Position numbers and translations under genes: made by a program. Below, piece by piece: positions 5,933-58,753 of a stretch of 64,000 bases of DNA (position 1 is its first letter; every line of letters begins with the position of its first letter). The notes under the pieces were generated by a model, which searched no databases, was not told where the DNA came from, and saw only the letters and a program-made list of their open reading frames with translations. Origin of the DNA: Bdellovibrionota bacterium (GTDB lineage: Bacteria; Bdellovibrionota; Bdellovibrionia; Bdellovibrionales; UBA840); contig JAYZXX010000009.1 in NCBI GenBank assembly GCA_036140815.1, positions 2,648 to 66,647 of the forward strand. Reading direction: 5' to 3'.

Positions 5933-7465
5933 TTAGTTGAGTTGGGAGATATCAGAACGAATCTTTGAAACCAGCTTGGCCGTTTGCTCTTTATTGGCCA
6001 AACTTAGATCTTTCGTAGCCTTCCAAAGCTCTATTCTTAGAGTCTTTAAATCGCGGAATCTATCTGGATAAACATAGTTCTCACTGGTTTCCGGTCCAAA
6101 AGTTTTCAGTTCCGTATGGGCCGTATCGTAAAATTTTCTTTTCCAAGTATTATGGTAAGTTTTAAGATCCAAAGAGTTAAGTTTTTTACGATCTAACATA
6201 CGATTTAGCTCATCACTTCTTTCTACCAAACTTTCATTCACTTGCTTTAAGATTTTCTCTTCTAGATCAGCTCTTTTTCTCTTTTGCAGATTGAATTGCT
6301 TCAATTTCATTTCAAACTGAACGTCCTTAACTCCGATAAAAATTTCTTTTTCCGATTTTAGGTTACCAAGTCTAGCCTTAACCAAATAAAAGCCATCACC
6401 CATCTTTCCGTCAGCCAAAGAGATTTCTAGGTCTTCTCCTGGAATAAACGCGAGGCTTTTAGAACGATGAAATCGAAAGTTCTTCAATATTTTATTGTCT
6501 CGACCAATGATTTCTACATGCAATTGATCCTCTCGCTCATAGTTACTTCGAATCTCTAATCTTGGGCGTAAACTCTGAAGAGCCGTTCCGTAAATACGAA
6601 GATGAGTTTCCTGTAAATCTTTGAAACCTTTTTCCTCGGCTACAGCTTGAGTGCTAGGCTCTATTTTAACGAAATTATGCAATAAAACTCCTAAACAAAT
6701 CAATAAACTTGCCACGGCAAACAATCTTGGCAAAGGAATTTTAAAGGAAAAGCGAGTTTTAATATTTGGCAACTTCGGCAACCAGGCCTTGGTGCTTTCT
6801 TCAGCCACCTGGGTAACTGCACTTTTGTTTTTATTGTGGAAACTAAAACTCAGTTGATTAATTTCATCAATGCTAAGTTCCTTTTTCTCTTTCATTCTTT
6901 TCTTCGTTAGGTCTTCCGTTAAAGCCTCTGAGGGAGCTGCTTCTTCGGCATATTCTAATATATCGCGTCCTTCGAAGTTTGCCACTGACTGCAATAATTC
7001 TCGACGATCCGCACCTGATAAAATTGGTTCGTTTGGCAATTCCTGAATTGGATTCAGGCCTTCATCCAATTTACTTGGTAAAAAGCTACTTACATCCCCA
7101 ATTCTCTCCCATGTCTGAAAGCCTGGCTTCCAAATGCGGTGGGAATAATCCAAATCTCCAAGGGCAATTTTGGACAAAATCTCTCTAGCTGCATAGGGCC
7201 CATCCTGAACAAATTCGCCATCTTCTGATGCAACGAGAACAACCCAGTGTCGTTCCGGCATAGCATCTACTTCCAAGCTGATTTGCTCGCCAGAAAAATG
7301 ATCTCTTACAAAATCAAGCTGTAAAGCTGGGTACCAATTGGAATCCCCCTCCAGACAAAAATAACTGTCCGATGGTATTTGCGAGCTTTTGATATTTTTT
7401 TGAATTTCTTTTTCTGAAATTGGACCGATTAAACGTTCCCCAAACTGTACGTACCATTTATGCAT
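5933..7465 (-). CDS. Membrane protein with two N-terminal GYF_2 (DUF4339)-like domains
   Basis: First GYF_2-like copy: MHKWYVQFGERLIGPISEKEIQKNIKSSQIPSDSYFCLEGDSNWYPALQL. Second copy: HWVVLV...DGPYAAREILSKIALGDLDYSHRIWKPGFQTWERIGDV. A central TM segment (LFAVASLLICLGVLL) follows. ATG at 7465 is preceded by GGGGGAAAG, whereas the track start at 7480 is TTG. Confidence 0.6.
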   Translation of the reverse strand: MHKWYVQFGERLIGPISEKEIQKNIKSSQIPSDSYFCLEGDSNWYPALQLDFVRDHFSGEQISLEVDAMPERHWVVLVASEDGEFVQDGPYAAREILSKIALGDLDYSHRIWKPGFQTWERIGDVSSFLPSKLDEGLNPIQELPNEPILSGADRRELLQSVANFEGRDILEYAEEAAPSEALTEDLTKKRMKEKKELSIDEINQLSFSFHNKNKSAVTQVAEESTKAWLPKLPNIKTRFSFKIPLPRLFAVASLLICLGVLLHNFVKIEPSTQAVAEEKGFKDLQETHLRIYGTALQSLRPRLEIRSNYEREDQLHVEIIGRDNKILKNFRFHRSKSLAFIPGEDLEISLADGKMGDGFYLVKARLGNLKSEKEIFIGVKDVQFEMKLKQFNLQKRKRADLEEKILKQVNESLVERSDELNRMLDRKKLNSLDLKTYHNTWKRKFYDTAHTELKTFGPETSENYVYPDRFRDLKTLRIELWKATKDLSLANKEQTAKLVSKIRSDISQLN

Positions 7466-37453: not shown

Positions 37454-38335
37454 TTACTCTACATTCTGTACTATTTCGCGGATTCTTTCAATCATCCCTT
37501 TGGATTCTACAATGTGCTTGGTTATGGAAGAGTGTTGAGATTTAGATCCAATGGTATTCACTTCACGAAGCAGTTCTTGGGAATAAAAATCAAGTCGCTT
37601 ACCCACAACAGCTTCTTTTGCCTTTAAAAGCCTTTTAAACTCTTTAAAATGCTCTTTTAATCTTAAAAGCTCTTCGGTGATATCTGCCTTATCAATCTGA
37701 ATCACCACTTCTTGTGCGATTCTTGCTTCGTCCATATCTGATTTTAAACCAAATTTTTCTAGACGAGAGTGCAGGCGTTTTTCTAAATCAGCATTTGCCT
37801 CTTCTCTGTAGGCAGCAATTTGCTTCACCTCGTTCTCTAGAGAGCCAAGGATGGAATTTAAATCCTCAGCGATGGCCTTGCCTTCCCGAACTCTTTCTTT
37901 TTCACAAGCCGTCAGCAATTTCTCAAGGCTACTAAAAAGAAAGTTCTTTTCAAGCTTACTGAGCTTAAGATTTTCTTCCACATTAAAAACCCCAGGAACT
38001 TTTGCCAATGTGGGCATTTCTAATTCCTCAGAAATTTTTAAATTTTTTGCCAATGCCTTATATGCCTTAGCATAGTTTTTTGCTAAATTTTCATCAGCCA
38101 CCACATTGGCCGAAGCCGACTTACTAAGCTTTTTGCGATGTACATATAAGTCTACAGAACCGCGTTTTAGCTTTTCTTGAATATTCTTTTTAATCTCAGA
38201 TTCTACCGGATAAAAATCTGGCGGAAGATGTGGTTTAAATTCAAAGAAACGTGAATTTACACAACGCACGCGGAGACTCAATTTAAGAGTTTCTATTTCT
38301 GCCTCAAGGGCGGCAAAGCCAGTCATCGATTTCAT
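37454..38335 (-). CDS. yicC: YicC-family stress-induced protein
   Basis: N-terminus MKSMTGFA and C-terminus EVNTIGSKS...IVESKGMIERIREIVQNVE are typical of YicC. The yicC-gmk-rpoZ-rel order is conserved. Confidence 0.85.
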   Translation of the reverse strand: MKSMTGFAALEAEIETLKLSLRVRCVNSRFFEFKPHLPPDFYPVESEIKKNIQEKLKRGSVDLYVHRKKLSKSASANVVADENLAKNYAKAYKALAKNLKISEELEMPTLAKVPGVFNVEENLKLSKLEKNFLFSSLEKLLTACEKERVREGKAIAEDLNSILGSLENEVKQIAAYREEANADLEKRLHSRLEKFGLKSDMDEARIAQEVVIQIDKADITEELLRLKEHFKEFKRLLKAKEAVVGKRLDFYSQELLREVNTIGSKSQHSSITKHIVESKGMIERIREIVQNVE

Positions 38336-38509
38336 GAATGAAGTATAGGGATTTGGAAGCCGAAACGCAAGCCTAAGCTACTGAAATTGCTTCAAAGCAG
38401 AGCGATTCTCAAAGTTTTACCGAGACTTGATAAACCGGACAAATAGCCTTAGTTCATTCTTAAACCAATAAAATGCTCTGTCTTAGCCAATGCTTTTATA
38501 CTACCTCTA

Positions 38510-38750
38510 TTAATTGCGAATAATGAGTCTTCAAGTCTTCAAATCGCTGTGTGAATTTACAAAAACTAAGAAGCAGGTTCGGACAAAGAAAATGTTTTTA
38601 AGAAATACAAACCGGCCCCTTTAATTGCGGATACGCACTCCCTAAGTCATTGAACTATAAGACAGAAAATATACCATAGAAGTTCTTAATTTGAACAAAA
38701 CTGGAGATTCTAGGGAAATTAGTACTTTGCAGGTTTCCATCCGCAATTAA
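38510..38750. repeat. Three copies of the 12-mer TTAATTGCGRAT (two direct, one inverted) in a non-coding region
   Basis: The copies are TTAATTGCGAAT at 38510-38521, TTAATTGCGGAT at 38621-38632 and ATCCGCAATTAA at 38739-38750. Spacings are 111 and 118 bp. No ORF of 60 aa or more lies in 38336-38928. Confidence 0.5.
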
Positions 38751-38998
38751 GTAGACCAATTGAAGCCATTCATCCATGATCAAAGTCCCGATTATTTATG
38801 CCCTAAATATCTCAGCCTTCCAACAAAACAGCTTGTGCATTTTCTCCTAAGCAATATATAATTTATAAATCTTTTACATCCTTGAAATTACCATGTGGGC
38901 CACCAGAGTATTTTTTTTAGCAGGAAGCCTAAACCTGCAGCTTTTGTTGTGAAAGAACAAAAAACTTGTTAAAAAAACAAGCAACAAAAGAGGACAGA

Positions 38999-39205
38999 AT
39001 GAAACCTTGGTGGACGAGTTTAAAAGAGAGCTTACTTACAATCAAAACTGAAGTTGAGGCTACAAAAGACCTAGAAAACCGCAGTTCTAAGCTCAGAAAC
39101 AAAGAAGAAATTCTAAATGAATTCAATGCCTCTAGAAGTTTCGGAGCTTTCGGCCCCGGACAACAGAATAATTTCACAAATTCTCGCTCGCGAAAACAGC
39201 AGTAA
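38999..39205 (+). CDS. Possible small hypothetical protein (68 aa)
   Basis: ATG at 38999 is preceded by AAGAGGA at 4-nt spacing. The product MKPWWTSLKESLL... is charged, with a Q/N/S-rich tail. It lies antisense to a 96-aa ORF that lacks an SD. It may be non-coding. Confidence 0.3.
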   Translation: MKPWWTSLKESLLTIKTEVEATKDLENRSSKLRNKEEILNEFNASRSFGAFGPGQQNNFTNSRSRKQQ

Positions 39206-39304
39206 TAGAAAAGTTTCACACCTTAGAAAATAAAAAATAATTATTGAAGACCTAATAGAGCCCAGATATTCCAAAGCCAATCAACAATTAAACTGGGGGT
39301 ATTT

Positions 39305-39781
39305 ATGCTTAAGCTATCATCTGTGATTCTATTATTTATCATGTTTTCAACAGCCGCTTATGCGGAAGAAGTTTTCAAGCTAAATTTTTTCGACTCAAGA
39401 CTTATTTTAGATATAAATTACTTAGAGGACCAAGACTATTCCAGCATCGAATCACGTGCAAGATCTATAATAAGTCACGACAGCAGTGTAAGTTCGGATT
39501 ACTACCAAAGCTTTAACCGTGTACTCTGCCAAAGAAGTTCCACAAAAATGACCTGTAGTATCCCCCTTATGTTTTCTTTGCCTCCGATATCCACTATTTC
39601 AAATCCACCACAAAAACCTGATCCATCTAGTATCAAAGAAACAAAGCTTTTATTAAACATTGTCATTAACTTCACAGATCAATATCGTAGTAATATCGAG
39701 GATACTAGTTTTTCACTAAGATTTGTTGATGAAGAAAAAGAGTTTCCAACCAACGATTACTCCTATTACAGGGTATTTTAA
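39305..39781 (+). CDS. Secreted hypothetical protein
   Basis: GGGGGT lies upstream of the ATG. Signal peptide MLKLSSVILLFIMFSTAAYA. Ends ...YYRVF. Confidence 0.5.
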   Translation: MLKLSSVILLFIMFSTAAYAEEVFKLNFFDSRLILDINYLEDQDYSSIESRARSIISHDSSVSSDYYQSFNRVLCQRSSTKMTCSIPLMFSLPPISTISNPPQKPDPSSIKETKLLLNIVINFTDQYRSNIEDTSFSLRFVDEEKEFPTNDYSYYRVF

Positions 39782-39890
39782 TAGAACTAGCTCGAGCTTA
39801 AAATCTATAAACTAGTCCCACCAATTGCATATGGATTAACGGCGGATCATTCTCAAAAATGTGTGTTTTAGCCATTCCATATTTTAGCAA

Positions 39891-40090
39891 GAGGAGGCAC
39901 TGGAAGCTTTTTCTCGAAGGACCTCCGGTTAGCGTGAAGCGATCGATCCGCTAAAAGGACTTATTCAAAGCACGCTAGCAAACAATGAAGCTCTAAACTT
40001 GAATATTGGTATGATATTGAGCGGTCGAAACCGGCGAGTACATGGAGGGGCGCGTCCTTCGAGGAAAAGCTTCTAGGGACTCCGGGCTTC
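39891..40090 (+). ncRNA. Unclassified GC-rich structured element closed by a 20-bp inverted repeat (candidate ncRNA; MITE or inverton remain alternatives)
   Basis: GAAGCTTTTTCTCGAAGGAC (39903-39922) pairs with GTCCTTCGAGGAAAAGCTTC (40054-40073). The single non-Watson-Crick position is a U-G wobble only if the element is read on the plus strand. Internal helices are 39925-39930 with 40029-40034, 39931-39936 with 39971-39976, and 40002-40006 with 40014-40018. The element is visibly more GC-rich than its flanks. The strand call is tentative. Confidence 0.35.
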
Positions 40091-40365
40091 ATTTTCTTAT
40101 GACATTTCCTTTTTGAAAAACTAAGTCCGAAAATAGAGTTTCAAGGACTTACACTTTCTTGAAAAAGAGACGTTAAAGGCTAAAATATATGATAGTACAT
40201 GAAGAAATTTTATCAATTGCAATTGAGATTCAGTGAAATCGTAAATCGAACCTACTTAGCTTAACCTAAGTAAAGCCATCTACAATTCAGCGGGCCATTT
40301 TGTAAAAAAATAGAGCCTCGCTGAATTCTTAAAAATTTAAATACTACGAAAGCTCTTGAGTCCTG

Positions 40366-41268
40366 CTACTTTTCAAATATTAGTTTTTCAAAAAACGATG
40401 GTACATCAGAAGGTAAAGAAGGGATTTCAAAGCCTCCTTCTTTTTTAAACCAAGTTCTTTGTCTTTTCGCTAACTGCATACTCTTGGTTACAATCTTTTC
40501 AAAAAGTTCCCCCTCTGATATTTCCCCTTGAATATACTCTACACTTTCTTTGTACCCCACACTCTCTAAAGCTCGCCAATCACCTTTACCTTGATCCAAA
40601 AGCTTTTTGGTCTCCGCAATTAAGCCCTGGCTTAACATTTTCTGGGTTCGTAATTTTAAGCGCTCACGGAGTAAGTCTCGATCCGGATTTAAAAACACTT
40701 TTGCCAAAGGATAAGGAAAATTTGACTCTCTTTTAGCGAAAGCAAGACTTGGTTTTTTGCCGAGTGACTTTAACTCTAGAGCTCTGGCTAAACGGTAATG
40801 ATCATTTTCTGAAATCTTTTGCGCATATTCAGGATCAAAGCCTTTCAATTCTAAAAAAGATTCCTGAGGATTCTCTTCTACTTGTTTTCGGATGACTTCT
40901 TTTTCCTCAACAGGAAGCTCTTCTATTTCAACAAGCCCTAGCTCCAAGGCCCTAAAATAAAAACCCGTTCCACCAGCAATGATTGCGTAAGGAACCGCCC
41001 TTTTCTCCATATCCGTTAAGCTCTTCAGGGCATCTTCGCGAAATTTTGCCGCCGTATAATACTCTGGATATTTTATATGAGACACCAAATGATGTGGTAC
41101 TTCTGCTAATTCTTCTAGGCTTGGCTTAGCAGATCCAATGTCTAGATCTTCGTAGACACTTACTGAATCACAATTAACAATCTCGCCACCAAGCTCCTTT
41201 GCCAAACGGATGGCAAAGGCACTTTTTCCTGAAGCGGTGGGCCCGTAAAGAAATATTACTTTCATCAA
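40366..41268 (-). CDS. miaA: tRNA dimethylallyltransferase
   Basis: VIFLYGPTASGKSAFAIRLAKELGGEIVNCDSVSVYEDLDIGSAKPS is the canonical MiaA N-terminus. Confidence 0.95.
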   Translation of the reverse strand: MMKVIFLYGPTASGKSAFAIRLAKELGGEIVNCDSVSVYEDLDIGSAKPSLEELAEVPHHLVSHIKYPEYYTAAKFREDALKSLTDMEKRAVPYAIIAGGTGFYFRALELGLVEIEELPVEEKEVIRKQVEENPQESFLELKGFDPEYAQKISENDHYRLARALELKSLGKKPSLAFAKRESNFPYPLAKVFLNPDRDLLRERLKLRTQKMLSQGLIAETKKLLDQGKGDWRALESVGYKESVEYIQGEISEGELFEKIVTKSMQLAKRQRTWFKKEGGFEIPSLPSDVPSFFEKLIFEK

Positions 41269-57853: not shown

Positions 57854-58753
57854 ATGAGCAAAGTTTTATTTCTTATTTCAACTCTATTTTTAAGCCTACA
57901 AGTAAAGGCGAGTCGATATGACGACATTGTAAATCAGCTGCTCTTAATCAAAAAGAATTCTCCTAACTACGTAAACATAGTCAGCCTCGGTAAAAACGAT
58001 CAAGACCAAAACATCTTAGCCTTAAAAATAGAGTTTCCTATCCAAAACGAAAAAATAAATCAATTGGTCGTAGCGGCTCACCACGGAAACGAAACTCTTA
58101 GTGTACCAGTTAGCCTCGAGTTTGCTGGACAGGTATTAAATATTCTAAAAAATCCAGACCACCCATTTCACACAAATTTTAAAAATAAACGCTTTCATGT
58201 GATTCCCGCTTTAAACATTTCTGGCATCAATAACAATCGTAGGGAAGAATATGATATCGAAGGAATCAGTCATGATCCAAACCGAGACTATCCAGATGCT
58301 TGCAATAAAACAAAAAAGAACTTCAAATTAAAAAGCACGTCCTTACTAACAAGGTACATCTACAATAATAAGATTGTCAGTGCCGCCACCGTACATGGCT
58401 ATATTGGAACTTTAACTTTCCCATGGGGAATGTTCACAAAAAACACCCACACTCACGATCATCAATCCTTCCTTGATTTAACTCAATATGCAGTAAAAGC
58501 AAACTCCTATGAAGTGGGTACCCACGCAGATTTAATTTATCCAGCAGAAGGCAGCTTTGAAGACTATATGTACCTTGGTTTTGGAATATGGACTGTCTTA
58601 CTCGAAATTGACCACAACCCTAACATCAGCAAAGACGCCAACTCTTTAGTGAGATTCTTCTACGCATCTCCTAACTCCCGCTCAAATCAACACCAACACA
58701 CAGCAGACTGTAAGTCCATGCGCAGAAACTACACCCCAATGAGCCGCCCATAA
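57854..58753 (+). CDS. Secreted M14-family zinc carboxypeptidase
   Basis: Signal peptide. AAHHGNE carries the HxxE zinc motif. TVHGY supplies the third ligand His. DPNRDYP is also present. Confidence 0.75.
   Translation: MSKVLFLISTLFLSLQVKASRYDDIVNQLLLIKKNSPNYVNIVSLGKNDQDQNILALKIEFPIQNEKINQLVVAAHHGNETLSVPVSLEFAGQVLNILKNPDHPFHTNFKNKRFHVIPALNISGINNNRREEYDIEGISHDPNRDYPDACNKTKKNFKLKSTSLLTRYIYNNKIVSAATVHGYIGTLTFPWGMFTKNTHTHDHQSFLDLTQYAVKANSYEVGTHADLIYPAEGSFEDYMYLGFGIWTVLLEIDHNPNISKDANSLVRFFYASPNSRSNQHQHTADCKSMRRNYTPMSRP

What the first reader, a model, noticed from the sequence alone, without database searches (positions are those of the whole stretch)
39891..40090. GC-rich ~190-nt element closed by a 20-bp near-perfect inverted repeat, matching no RNA family I can recognise
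**Seen in the sequence**
- 39903-39922 (GAAGCTTTTTCTCGAAGGAC) and 40054-40073 (GTCCTTCGAGGAAAAGCTTC) are complementary at 19 of 20 positions.
- The one exception is T versus G. This is a U-G wobble if the plus strand is transcribed and an A-C mismatch on the other strand.
- Between the arms, further nested complementarities exist: CCGGTT/AACCGG, AGCGTG/CACGCT, TTAGCG/CGCTAA and AATAT/ATATT.
- The segment is conspicuously more GC-rich than the surrounding AT-rich spacer.
- It lies between the 3' ends of two convergent genes (39781 and 40366), so it is not a 5' leader or riboswitch of either.

**Inference**
- One possibility is an independently transcribed structured RNA.
- A second is a MITE-like element with 20-bp terminal inverted repeats.
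- A third is an invertible DNA segment.
- A 20-bp uninterrupted helix is unusual for housekeeping RNAs.
Basis: seen in the sequence. Interest (0 to 1): 0.6.

Follow-up and report, generated by a model that had tools for sequence, protein, structure and literature searches.

The report
Orphan GC-rich palindromic insert near miaA
A real 191-bp GC-rich segment closed by a long inverted repeat sits in DNA unique to one marine predatory-bacterium genome. Its interior is no more structured than random sequence and it has no relatives in any database searched, so it looks like an ordinary small palindromic insertion rather than a new RNA gene.

Summary
The inverted repeat is real and non-random. Arms 39903-39922 and 40054-40073 pair at 19 of 20 positions and extend to 30-nt arms (39893-39922 / 40054-40083, 26 of 30). 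It is the only such repeat in the window. The 191-bp unit is 49.7% GC against 38% for the window, the 99.8th percentile.

The 131-nt interior folds no better than shuffled sequence (z -0.10 on the + strand, +0.33 on the - strand). The "nested complementarities" are therefore chance-level, and all excess stability comes from the closing helix.

No Rfam family matches. No second copy turned up in the window, 25 fetched loci, phages, plasmids, viral contigs or JGI metagenomes. There is no target-site duplication, no promoter-like or terminator-like site, and no recombinase, transposase or reverse transcriptase among the 29 neighbouring ORFs scanned.

The host is an uncultured Bdellovibrionota MAG. 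In the eight relative contigs that reach past miaA (40-57% identity), yicC follows directly. The element lies in a 1.16-kb segment, together with an ORFan secreted-protein gene, that the closest relative (MiaA 74%) lacks.

Best reading (confidence 0.4): a solitary MITE-like palindromic insertion that would form a 23-bp RNA hairpin in the ORFan gene's 3' region. An independent sRNA or an inverton is not excluded. Interest is low.

The parts
39893..39922 (+). Left arm of the inverted repeat. 39900-39922 is the 5' strand of a 23-bp helix on the + strand. 39893-39896 (GGAG) forms an outer 4-bp helix.
   Evidence: (I1: 30-nt arms, 87% complementary)
39923..40053 (.). 131-nt core, 48.1% GC. It holds no ORF of 50 aa or more, has no promoter-like site, and shows no excess secondary structure on either strand.
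   Evidence: z -0.10; z +0.33
40054..40083 (+). Right arm of the inverted repeat. G40064 and U40074 make G.U pairs on the + strand only.
39209..40365 (.). Lineage-specific 1.16-kb segment that carries the element. It is absent from the closest relative, whose small-ORF stop overlaps the miaA stop. It contains the ORFan gene 39305-39781 (+), which encodes a 158-aa protein with a signal-peptide-like N-terminus.

Best explanation
The element is a discrete, non-autonomous palindromic DNA insertion of the MITE / small-palindromic-repeat kind. Two 30-bp terminal inverted repeats (26 of 30 matching; the inner 20 at 19 of 20) bracket a 131-bp non-coding core. The unit is embedded in a 1.16-kb stretch that only this Bdellovibrionota genome has, between the ancestrally adjacent genes miaA and yicC.

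No terminator-like site separates it from the upstream ORFan gene (39305-39781, + strand), and no promoter-like site lies directly upstream. It is therefore most likely transcribed as that gene's 3' untranslated region. There the arms must form a 23-bp helix that is continuous only on the + strand, closing a large floppy loop. The probable consequence is a passive one. The helix would act as a barrier to 3' exonucleases and read-through, and as a potential RNase III substrate, insulating the two convergent transcription units.

Shown:
- the repeat and its statistical significance;
- the GC block coinciding with the repeat boundaries;
- the lack of interior structure;
- absence from the syntenic site in all relatives;
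- absence of any Rfam match.

Inferred:
- a mobile origin;
- transcription from the ORFan promoter;
- any effect on RNA stability.
For: - Repeat: real and unique in the window.
- Stability: all excess folding energy comes from the arms, because the interior has z about 0 on both strands, against z -5.4 for the whole element.
- Composition: GC is 49.7% inside and 36.0% / 32.6% outside, with the step at the repeat boundaries, as expected of a discrete inserted unit.
- Synteny: yicC follows miaA within about 30-50 nt in all eight relative contigs that reach past miaA (L002-L004, L022-L025). The closest relative (MiaA 74%, L005-L010) has only the part homologous to window 38336-39208.
- Companion gene: the 158-aa protein has no homologue among 5.8 billion proteins.
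- Signals: no promoter-like or terminator-like site lies between the ORF stop and the element.
- Family definition: MITEs have terminal inverted repeats around a core without a transposase, are usually under 200 bp, and fold into long RNA hairpins; REP-type repeats favour sites between convergent genes (PMC3184786).
Against: - No target-site duplication at any of three candidate boundaries.
- No second copy in the 64-kb window, in 25 fetched loci, or in the phage, plasmid, viral-contig or JGI-metagenome collections.
- No parent insertion sequence with similar ends was found.
- Both transition mismatches are G.U on the + strand, and the + strand fold is 17.7 kcal/mol more stable. This hints at RNA-level selection rather than pure DNA symmetry, though it is statistically weak (p = 0.25).
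- GC content above the host average is unusual for a home-grown MITE.
Confidence: 0.4

Rival explanations
1. An independently transcribed, lineage-specific structured small RNA of about 190 nt on the + strand. Its 5' and 3' ends would form a long closing helix, and the interior would carry the functional, protein- or RNA-binding part.
For: - The + strand fold is -78.8 kcal/mol (z -5.4) against -61.1 (z -3.3) for the - strand.
- Both transition mismatches in the arms are G.U on the + strand.
- GC enrichment (99.8th percentile) is typical of RNA genes in AT-rich genomes.
- It is a discrete unit in an intergenic region.
Against: - The interior has no more structure than shuffles.
- There is no Rfam match, even at E<=10.
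- No promoter-like site lies upstream and no intrinsic terminator follows.
- It is absent from every relative at this locus, so it is not a housekeeping RNA.
- A perfect 23-bp helix is unusual for a stable RNA in a cell with RNase III (general knowledge).
Confidence: 0.2
2. An invertible DNA segment (inverton). A site-specific recombinase encoded elsewhere would flip the 131-bp core between the inverted repeats, switching antisense or read-through transcription toward the ORFan gene or miaA.
For: - Near-perfect 20-30-bp inverted repeats flank a short core, which is the defining geometry of invertons (PMC11602134).
- Contigs assembled independently from single runs stop inside the element or beside it: L001 ends at 39937 and L011 starts at 40092.
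Against: - No promoter-like site lies in the core on either strand.
- Both neighbours point their 3' ends at it, so there is nothing obvious to switch.
- No recombinase was found among the 29 ORFs scanned.
- The contig ends are 15 nt past the left arm's inner end (39922) and 9 nt outside the right arm's outer end (40083). A third contig (L012) ends at 40184, and L001's other end is mid-gene. Low coverage explains these ends as well as inversion does.
Confidence: 0.1
3. A functionless relic: a decaying fragment of acquired DNA whose inverted repeat is recent or accidental and has no role at either the DNA or the RNA level.
For: - It is an orphan with no homologues.
- It sits in a region that has grown by successive insertions.
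- No functional signal of any kind was found.
Against: A 19-of-20 repeat with GC boundaries this sharp is very unlikely by accident. If it is old, it would have decayed without selection. Its age cannot be bounded, because the nearest relative is distant.
Confidence: 0.25

Closest known systems
Bacterial MITEs such as Correia/NEMIS elements of Neisseria and ERIC elements of enterobacteria
   Same: - Size of 100-200 bp.
- Terminal inverted repeats of 20-30 bp around a non-coding core.
- Intergenic location.
- A long RNA hairpin when co-transcribed with a neighbouring gene.
   Different: - Those families have tens to hundreds of copies and flanking target-site duplications. Here only one copy is visible and there is no duplication.
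- There is no sequence similarity to any known element.
- GC content is above the host average.
REP / BIME / REPIN palindromic repeats
   Same: - GC-rich relative to the surroundings.
- Favoured position between convergent genes.
- Paired inverted units separated by a spacer.
- Proposed roles in mRNA 3'-end protection.
   Different: - REP units are themselves short hairpins and are highly repeated. The arms here have no internal hairpin and occur once in 64 kb.
- No RAYT transposase was seen.
Invertible promoters (invertons)
   Same: Near-perfect inverted repeats of about 20-30 bp flanking a segment of 100-200 bp.
   Different: - There is no promoter-like site inside.
- It is not upstream of any gene.
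- No recombinase is nearby.
- Orientation heterogeneity was not tested.
Retron msr-msd non-coding RNA
   Same: Long a1/a2-type inverted repeats close a non-coding unit of about 150-250 nt. Long arms are known from Myxococcus retrons (from my own knowledge).
   Different: - No reverse transcriptase gene lies downstream on either strand or among the 29 ORFs scanned.
- The interior lacks the strong msd hairpin.

Membership tests
MITE | Terminal inverted repeats bracketing a short core without a transposase gene | tested here: met
   30-nt arms, 26 of 30; 191 bp in total; longest ORF 43 aa
MITE | Flanking target-site duplication (direct repeat) | tested here: not met
   No exact direct repeat of 2-10 nt at the boundaries 39893/40083, 39900/40076 or 39903/40073
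MITE | Multiple dispersed copies in the genome or in relatives | tested here: inconclusive
   It is a single copy in the 64-kb window and is absent from the 25 loci and four public collections searched. The rest of this MAG and its reads could not be searched.
MITE | Ends resemble those of a parent insertion sequence | tested here: inconclusive
   blastn of the element against plasmids and phages gave only chance hits. No ISfinder-type library was available.
Inverton | Inverted repeats flanking the segment | tested here: met
Inverton | Promoter or other regulatory element inside, facing a regulated gene | tested here: not met
   No sigma-70-like site lies within 39893-40083 on either strand. 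Both neighbours present their 3' ends.
Inverton | Both orientations present in sequencing reads | not testable with these tools
   This needs the reads of SRR26496209, SRR26496220 and SRR26496232.
Known structured RNA family (Rfam, including 6S, SRP, tmRNA, Y-like and riboswitches) | Match to a covariance model | tested here: not met
   There was no hit at gathering score in the window and no hit over the element at E<=10. ARAGORN found nothing.
Novel structured RNA | Secondary structure beyond chance and supported by covariation | tested here: inconclusive
   The whole element has z -5.4, but the interior has z -0.10. No homologues exist for a covariation test.
Retron msr-msd | Adjacent reverse transcriptase gene | tested here: not met
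   Downstream on the + strand is non-coding sequence and then miaA. On the - strand it is the antisense of the ORFan gene. No RT domain was found in the 29 ORFs.
Integron cassette attC site | R''(RYYYAAC) and R'(GTTRRRY) boxes at the ends of the imperfect palindrome | tested here: not met
   Neither arm contains these motifs on either strand, by reading the arms. No integrase is nearby.
Intrinsic terminator | GC-rich stem directly followed by a U tract | tested here: not met
   The scan found 0 terminator-like sites in 38300-40450. The U-rich run starts 8 nt after the outer helix.

The most novel reading that the evidence does not exclude
The element is a new, lineage-restricted RNA gene or a trans-served DNA switch, acquired together with an ORFan secreted-protein gene by a marine predatory bacterium. 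In the RNA version, the 23-bp closing helix marks an RNase III-processed precursor, and the GC-rich 131-nt loop is the functional part.
Probability: 0.12. Interest if true: 0.45.

Novelty: new member of a known kind. Interest (0 to 1): 0.2.

Why it matters
If this is only a solitary palindromic insertion, it matters little. It would document how a conserved operon (mutL-miaA-yicC-gmk-rpoZ-relA) was split by stepwise insertions in one Bdellovibrionota lineage. It would also show that a striking hairpin need not be an RNA gene. If RNA-seq later shows a discrete transcript, it would be an orphan sRNA in a poorly studied predatory phylum. Even then it is confined to one uncultured genome and offers no handle on a wider question.

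Tried and rejected
- **6S, SRP, tmRNA and other housekeeping RNAs:** no Rfam or ARAGORN signal, and the element is absent from relatives at this locus.
- **Retron:** no reverse transcriptase.
- **attC cassette site:** no R boxes and no integrase.
- **Type I toxin mRNA:**
  - The GGAGG at 39893 is followed only by a 10-codon CTG frame.
  - The 43-aa minus-strand ORF has no hydrophobic helix, and its AAGGAA motif lies too far upstream of the ATG to serve as a ribosome-binding site.
  - None of the short ORFs in or beside the element is in the 15-billion-protein collection.
- **Intrinsic terminator:** no adjacent U tract.
- **Arm 20-mer scans:**
  - One viral locus and eight metagenome loci matched. 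I inspected L013, L016 and L019, which are unrelated sequence. None of the nine loci pairs the match with an inverted partner and an element-like core.
  - The several matches in L016 are a paralogous coding motif (KKLFLEGR).
  - nhmmer's E = 0.03 hit in L019 is high-GC sequence unrelated to the element.
- **Other viral scans:** an interior 20-mer and a gapped two-arm pattern found nothing.
- **Genome collection:** the genome-contig scan with MiaA returned only three distant relatives, so it gave no access to the host genome.
- **Logan contig ends near the element** (39937, 40092): considered as evidence for a repeat or an inversion. They fit neither the expected k-mer boundaries nor the third contig, which ends at 40184, so I treat them as low coverage.
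- **Boundaries of the 1.16-kb segment:** the 9-nt direct repeat AATAGAGCC (39254 / 40309) is compatible with chance.
- **Not attempted:**
  - A single-sequence covariance model, because only about 0.27 Mb of fetched sequence was available to search.
  - A protein search with the 43-aa ORF, because the prior was low and the cost high.

Full report
**1. The observation**

A search for the arm with up to three mismatches finds only these two sites. The expected count was 0.01, and none of 100 shuffles gave two.

A scan of my own finds no other 20-nt inverted repeat with at most one mismatch and a loop of at most 200 nt in the 64 kb. It is also the top-ranked local inverted repeat.

The repeat is longer than described. 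The arms run 39893-39922 and 40054-40083, with 26 of 30 positions complementary. Of the four mismatches, two are transversions. The other two are transitions that become G.U pairs on the + strand only (39902/40074 and 39912/40064).

The + strand RNA therefore has a continuous 23-bp helix plus an outer GGAG/CUCC helix. It folds at -78.8 kcal/mol (z -5.4). The - strand folds at -61.1 kcal/mol (z -3.3).

The unit is 49.7% GC against 38.0% for the window, which is the 99.8th percentile. Its flanks are 36.0% and 32.6% GC, so the GC block ends at the repeat boundaries. The convergent neighbours are confirmed.

**2. What does not hold**

The interior, 39923-40053, folds at -31.0 kcal/mol on the + strand. 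Shuffles average -30.65 (z -0.10; 82 of 200 shuffles fold as well). On the - strand z is +0.33.

The nested complementarities are thus what any sequence of this composition offers. Two of them share bases and exclude each other. The element is a long closing helix around an unstructured core, not an elaborately folded RNA.

**3. Known families**

- Rfam gives nothing at gathering score in the whole window, and nothing at E<=10 over the element.
- ARAGORN finds no tRNA or tmRNA.
- There is no promoter-like site inside the element or just upstream of it, and no terminator-like site in 38300-40450.
- The short ORFs in or beside the element (43, 33 and 31 aa) are not in the protein collection.

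**4. Context**

The flanking genes are mutL and miaA on one side and yicC, gmk and relA on the other, all on the - strand. The closest protein matches identify an uncultured Bdellovibrionota MAG.

In all eight relative contigs that reach past miaA (L002-L004 and L022-L025, MiaA 40-57% identical), yicC follows miaA within about 30-50 nt.

The closest relative comes from TARA ocean assemblies (MiaA 74%). It has a 720-nt gap holding a homologue of the 68-aa ORF (window 38999-39205) and of window 38336-38412. It has nothing corresponding to 39209-40365.

That 1.16-kb segment carries a 158-aa protein with a signal-peptide-like N-terminus, plus the element. The protein has no homologue among 5.8 billion proteins.

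The operon has therefore been split by at least two successive insertions, and the element belongs to the younger one. None of the 29 neighbouring ORFs scanned has a transposase, recombinase or reverse-transcriptase domain.

**5. Search for relatives or further copies**

- blastn (word size 7) and nhmmer of the element against the window and all fetched loci find only the element itself and the same-organism contig L001.
- Phage and plasmid collections give only chance matches.
- Exact scans for the arm in viral contigs and JGI metagenomes returned nine matching loci. None pairs the match with an inverted partner and an element-like core. The three I inspected (L013, L016, L019) are unrelated sequence.
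- Two further viral scans found nothing.
- The rest of the host genome could not be reached. The genome-collection scan returned only three distant relatives.

**6. Interpretation**

The anatomy is a pair of near-perfect terminal repeats, a core without structure or coding capacity, and a composition step exactly at the repeat ends. The unit lies in lineage-specific intergenic DNA between convergent genes. This is the anatomy of a small non-autonomous palindromic insertion of the MITE / REP kind, as defined in PMC3184786.

Two defining features are missing or untested. There is no target-site duplication, and only one copy is visible. I therefore file it as MITE-like, not as a proven MITE.

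Whatever its origin, any transcript crossing it must form the 23-bp helix. No terminator-like site separates it from the ORFan gene, and no promoter-like site precedes it. The simplest expectation is that it lies in that gene's 3' region. There it would act as an exonuclease or read-through barrier, or as an RNase III target. This step is inference.

The G.U asymmetry and the stronger + strand fold fit that orientation, but they are statistically weak (two of two transitions, p = 0.25).

**7. Rivals**

- An independent sRNA remains possible at 0.2. It lacks support from interior structure, transcription signals or conservation.
- An inverton (0.1) has the right geometry (PMC11602134). It has no internal promoter, no gene to switch and no recombinase.
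- The ends of independently assembled contigs near the element (39937 and 40092) are suggestive. They do not fall where a repeat or an inversion would break a k=31 graph, and a third contig ends at 40184.
- A functionless relic (0.25) cannot be excluded, because the age of the insertion is unbounded.

**8. Verdict**

The feature is real, statistically solid and correctly located, but its claimed internal structure is not supported. It is an orphan with no testable homologues. It most resembles a known kind of small palindromic insertion. Interest is low (0.2).

The decisive tests are copy number in the full assembly and reads, read orientation, and transcript mapping. None could be run here.

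Noticed in passing
window 38509-38521, 38620-38632 (+) and 38739-38751 (-); L005 7316-7336 / 7443-7463: There is a second module bounded by an inverted repeat in the same miaA-yicC gap. The motif TTAATTGCGGAT and its complement lie about 106-119 nt apart. In the TARA relative the arms are 21 nt and 95% complementary. The arm sequence is conserved between the two lineages while the interior has diverged, and the window has an extra partial left arm. It could be a conserved protein-binding pair, a MITE or an RNA stem.
   Followed up: partly
window ~38921-38950, upstream of the 68-aa ORF 38999-39205: A + strand terminator-like hairpin (GCAGG-N9-CCTGC followed by UUUUGUUG, preceded by a T8 run) sits just before the small ORF. 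It lies in the best-conserved stretch of the alignment with the 74% relative. It could be an attenuator or leader, or the end of an upstream + strand RNA.
   Followed up: partly
window 40084-40345: The AT-rich spacer to the right of the element folds better than chance (z -3.15). It has an imperfect long hairpin at about 40100-40176 and a miaA terminator-like hairpin at 40284-40330. The latter gave weak, sub-threshold Rfam hits to a plastid 3' UTR hairpin family.
   Followed up: partly
window 40110-40124 and 40380-40394: A perfect 15-nt inverted repeat (TTTTTGAAAAACTAA) links the spacer beside the element to the last codons of miaA. It is low-complexity sequence and may be chance.
   Followed up: no
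window 57880-57898 and 58017-58035: A 19-nt inverted repeat, 95% complementary, with a 118-nt spacer lies inside the ORF 57854-58753. Its geometry resembles the studied element, but it is AT-rich and in coding sequence.
   Followed up: no
L004 8059-8190: A Bdellovibrionales MAG has a hairpin with 43-nt arms (88% complementary, 46-nt loop) in the non-coding gap upstream of relA. Large palindromes in gaps of this operon are therefore not unique to the window's genome.
   Followed up: no
L001 (ends at window 39937), L011 (starts at window 40092): Contigs of the same organism assembled independently from single runs stop inside the element or beside it. No independent assembly covers 39938-40091. 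This probably reflects low coverage, but it is unexplained.
   Followed up: partly
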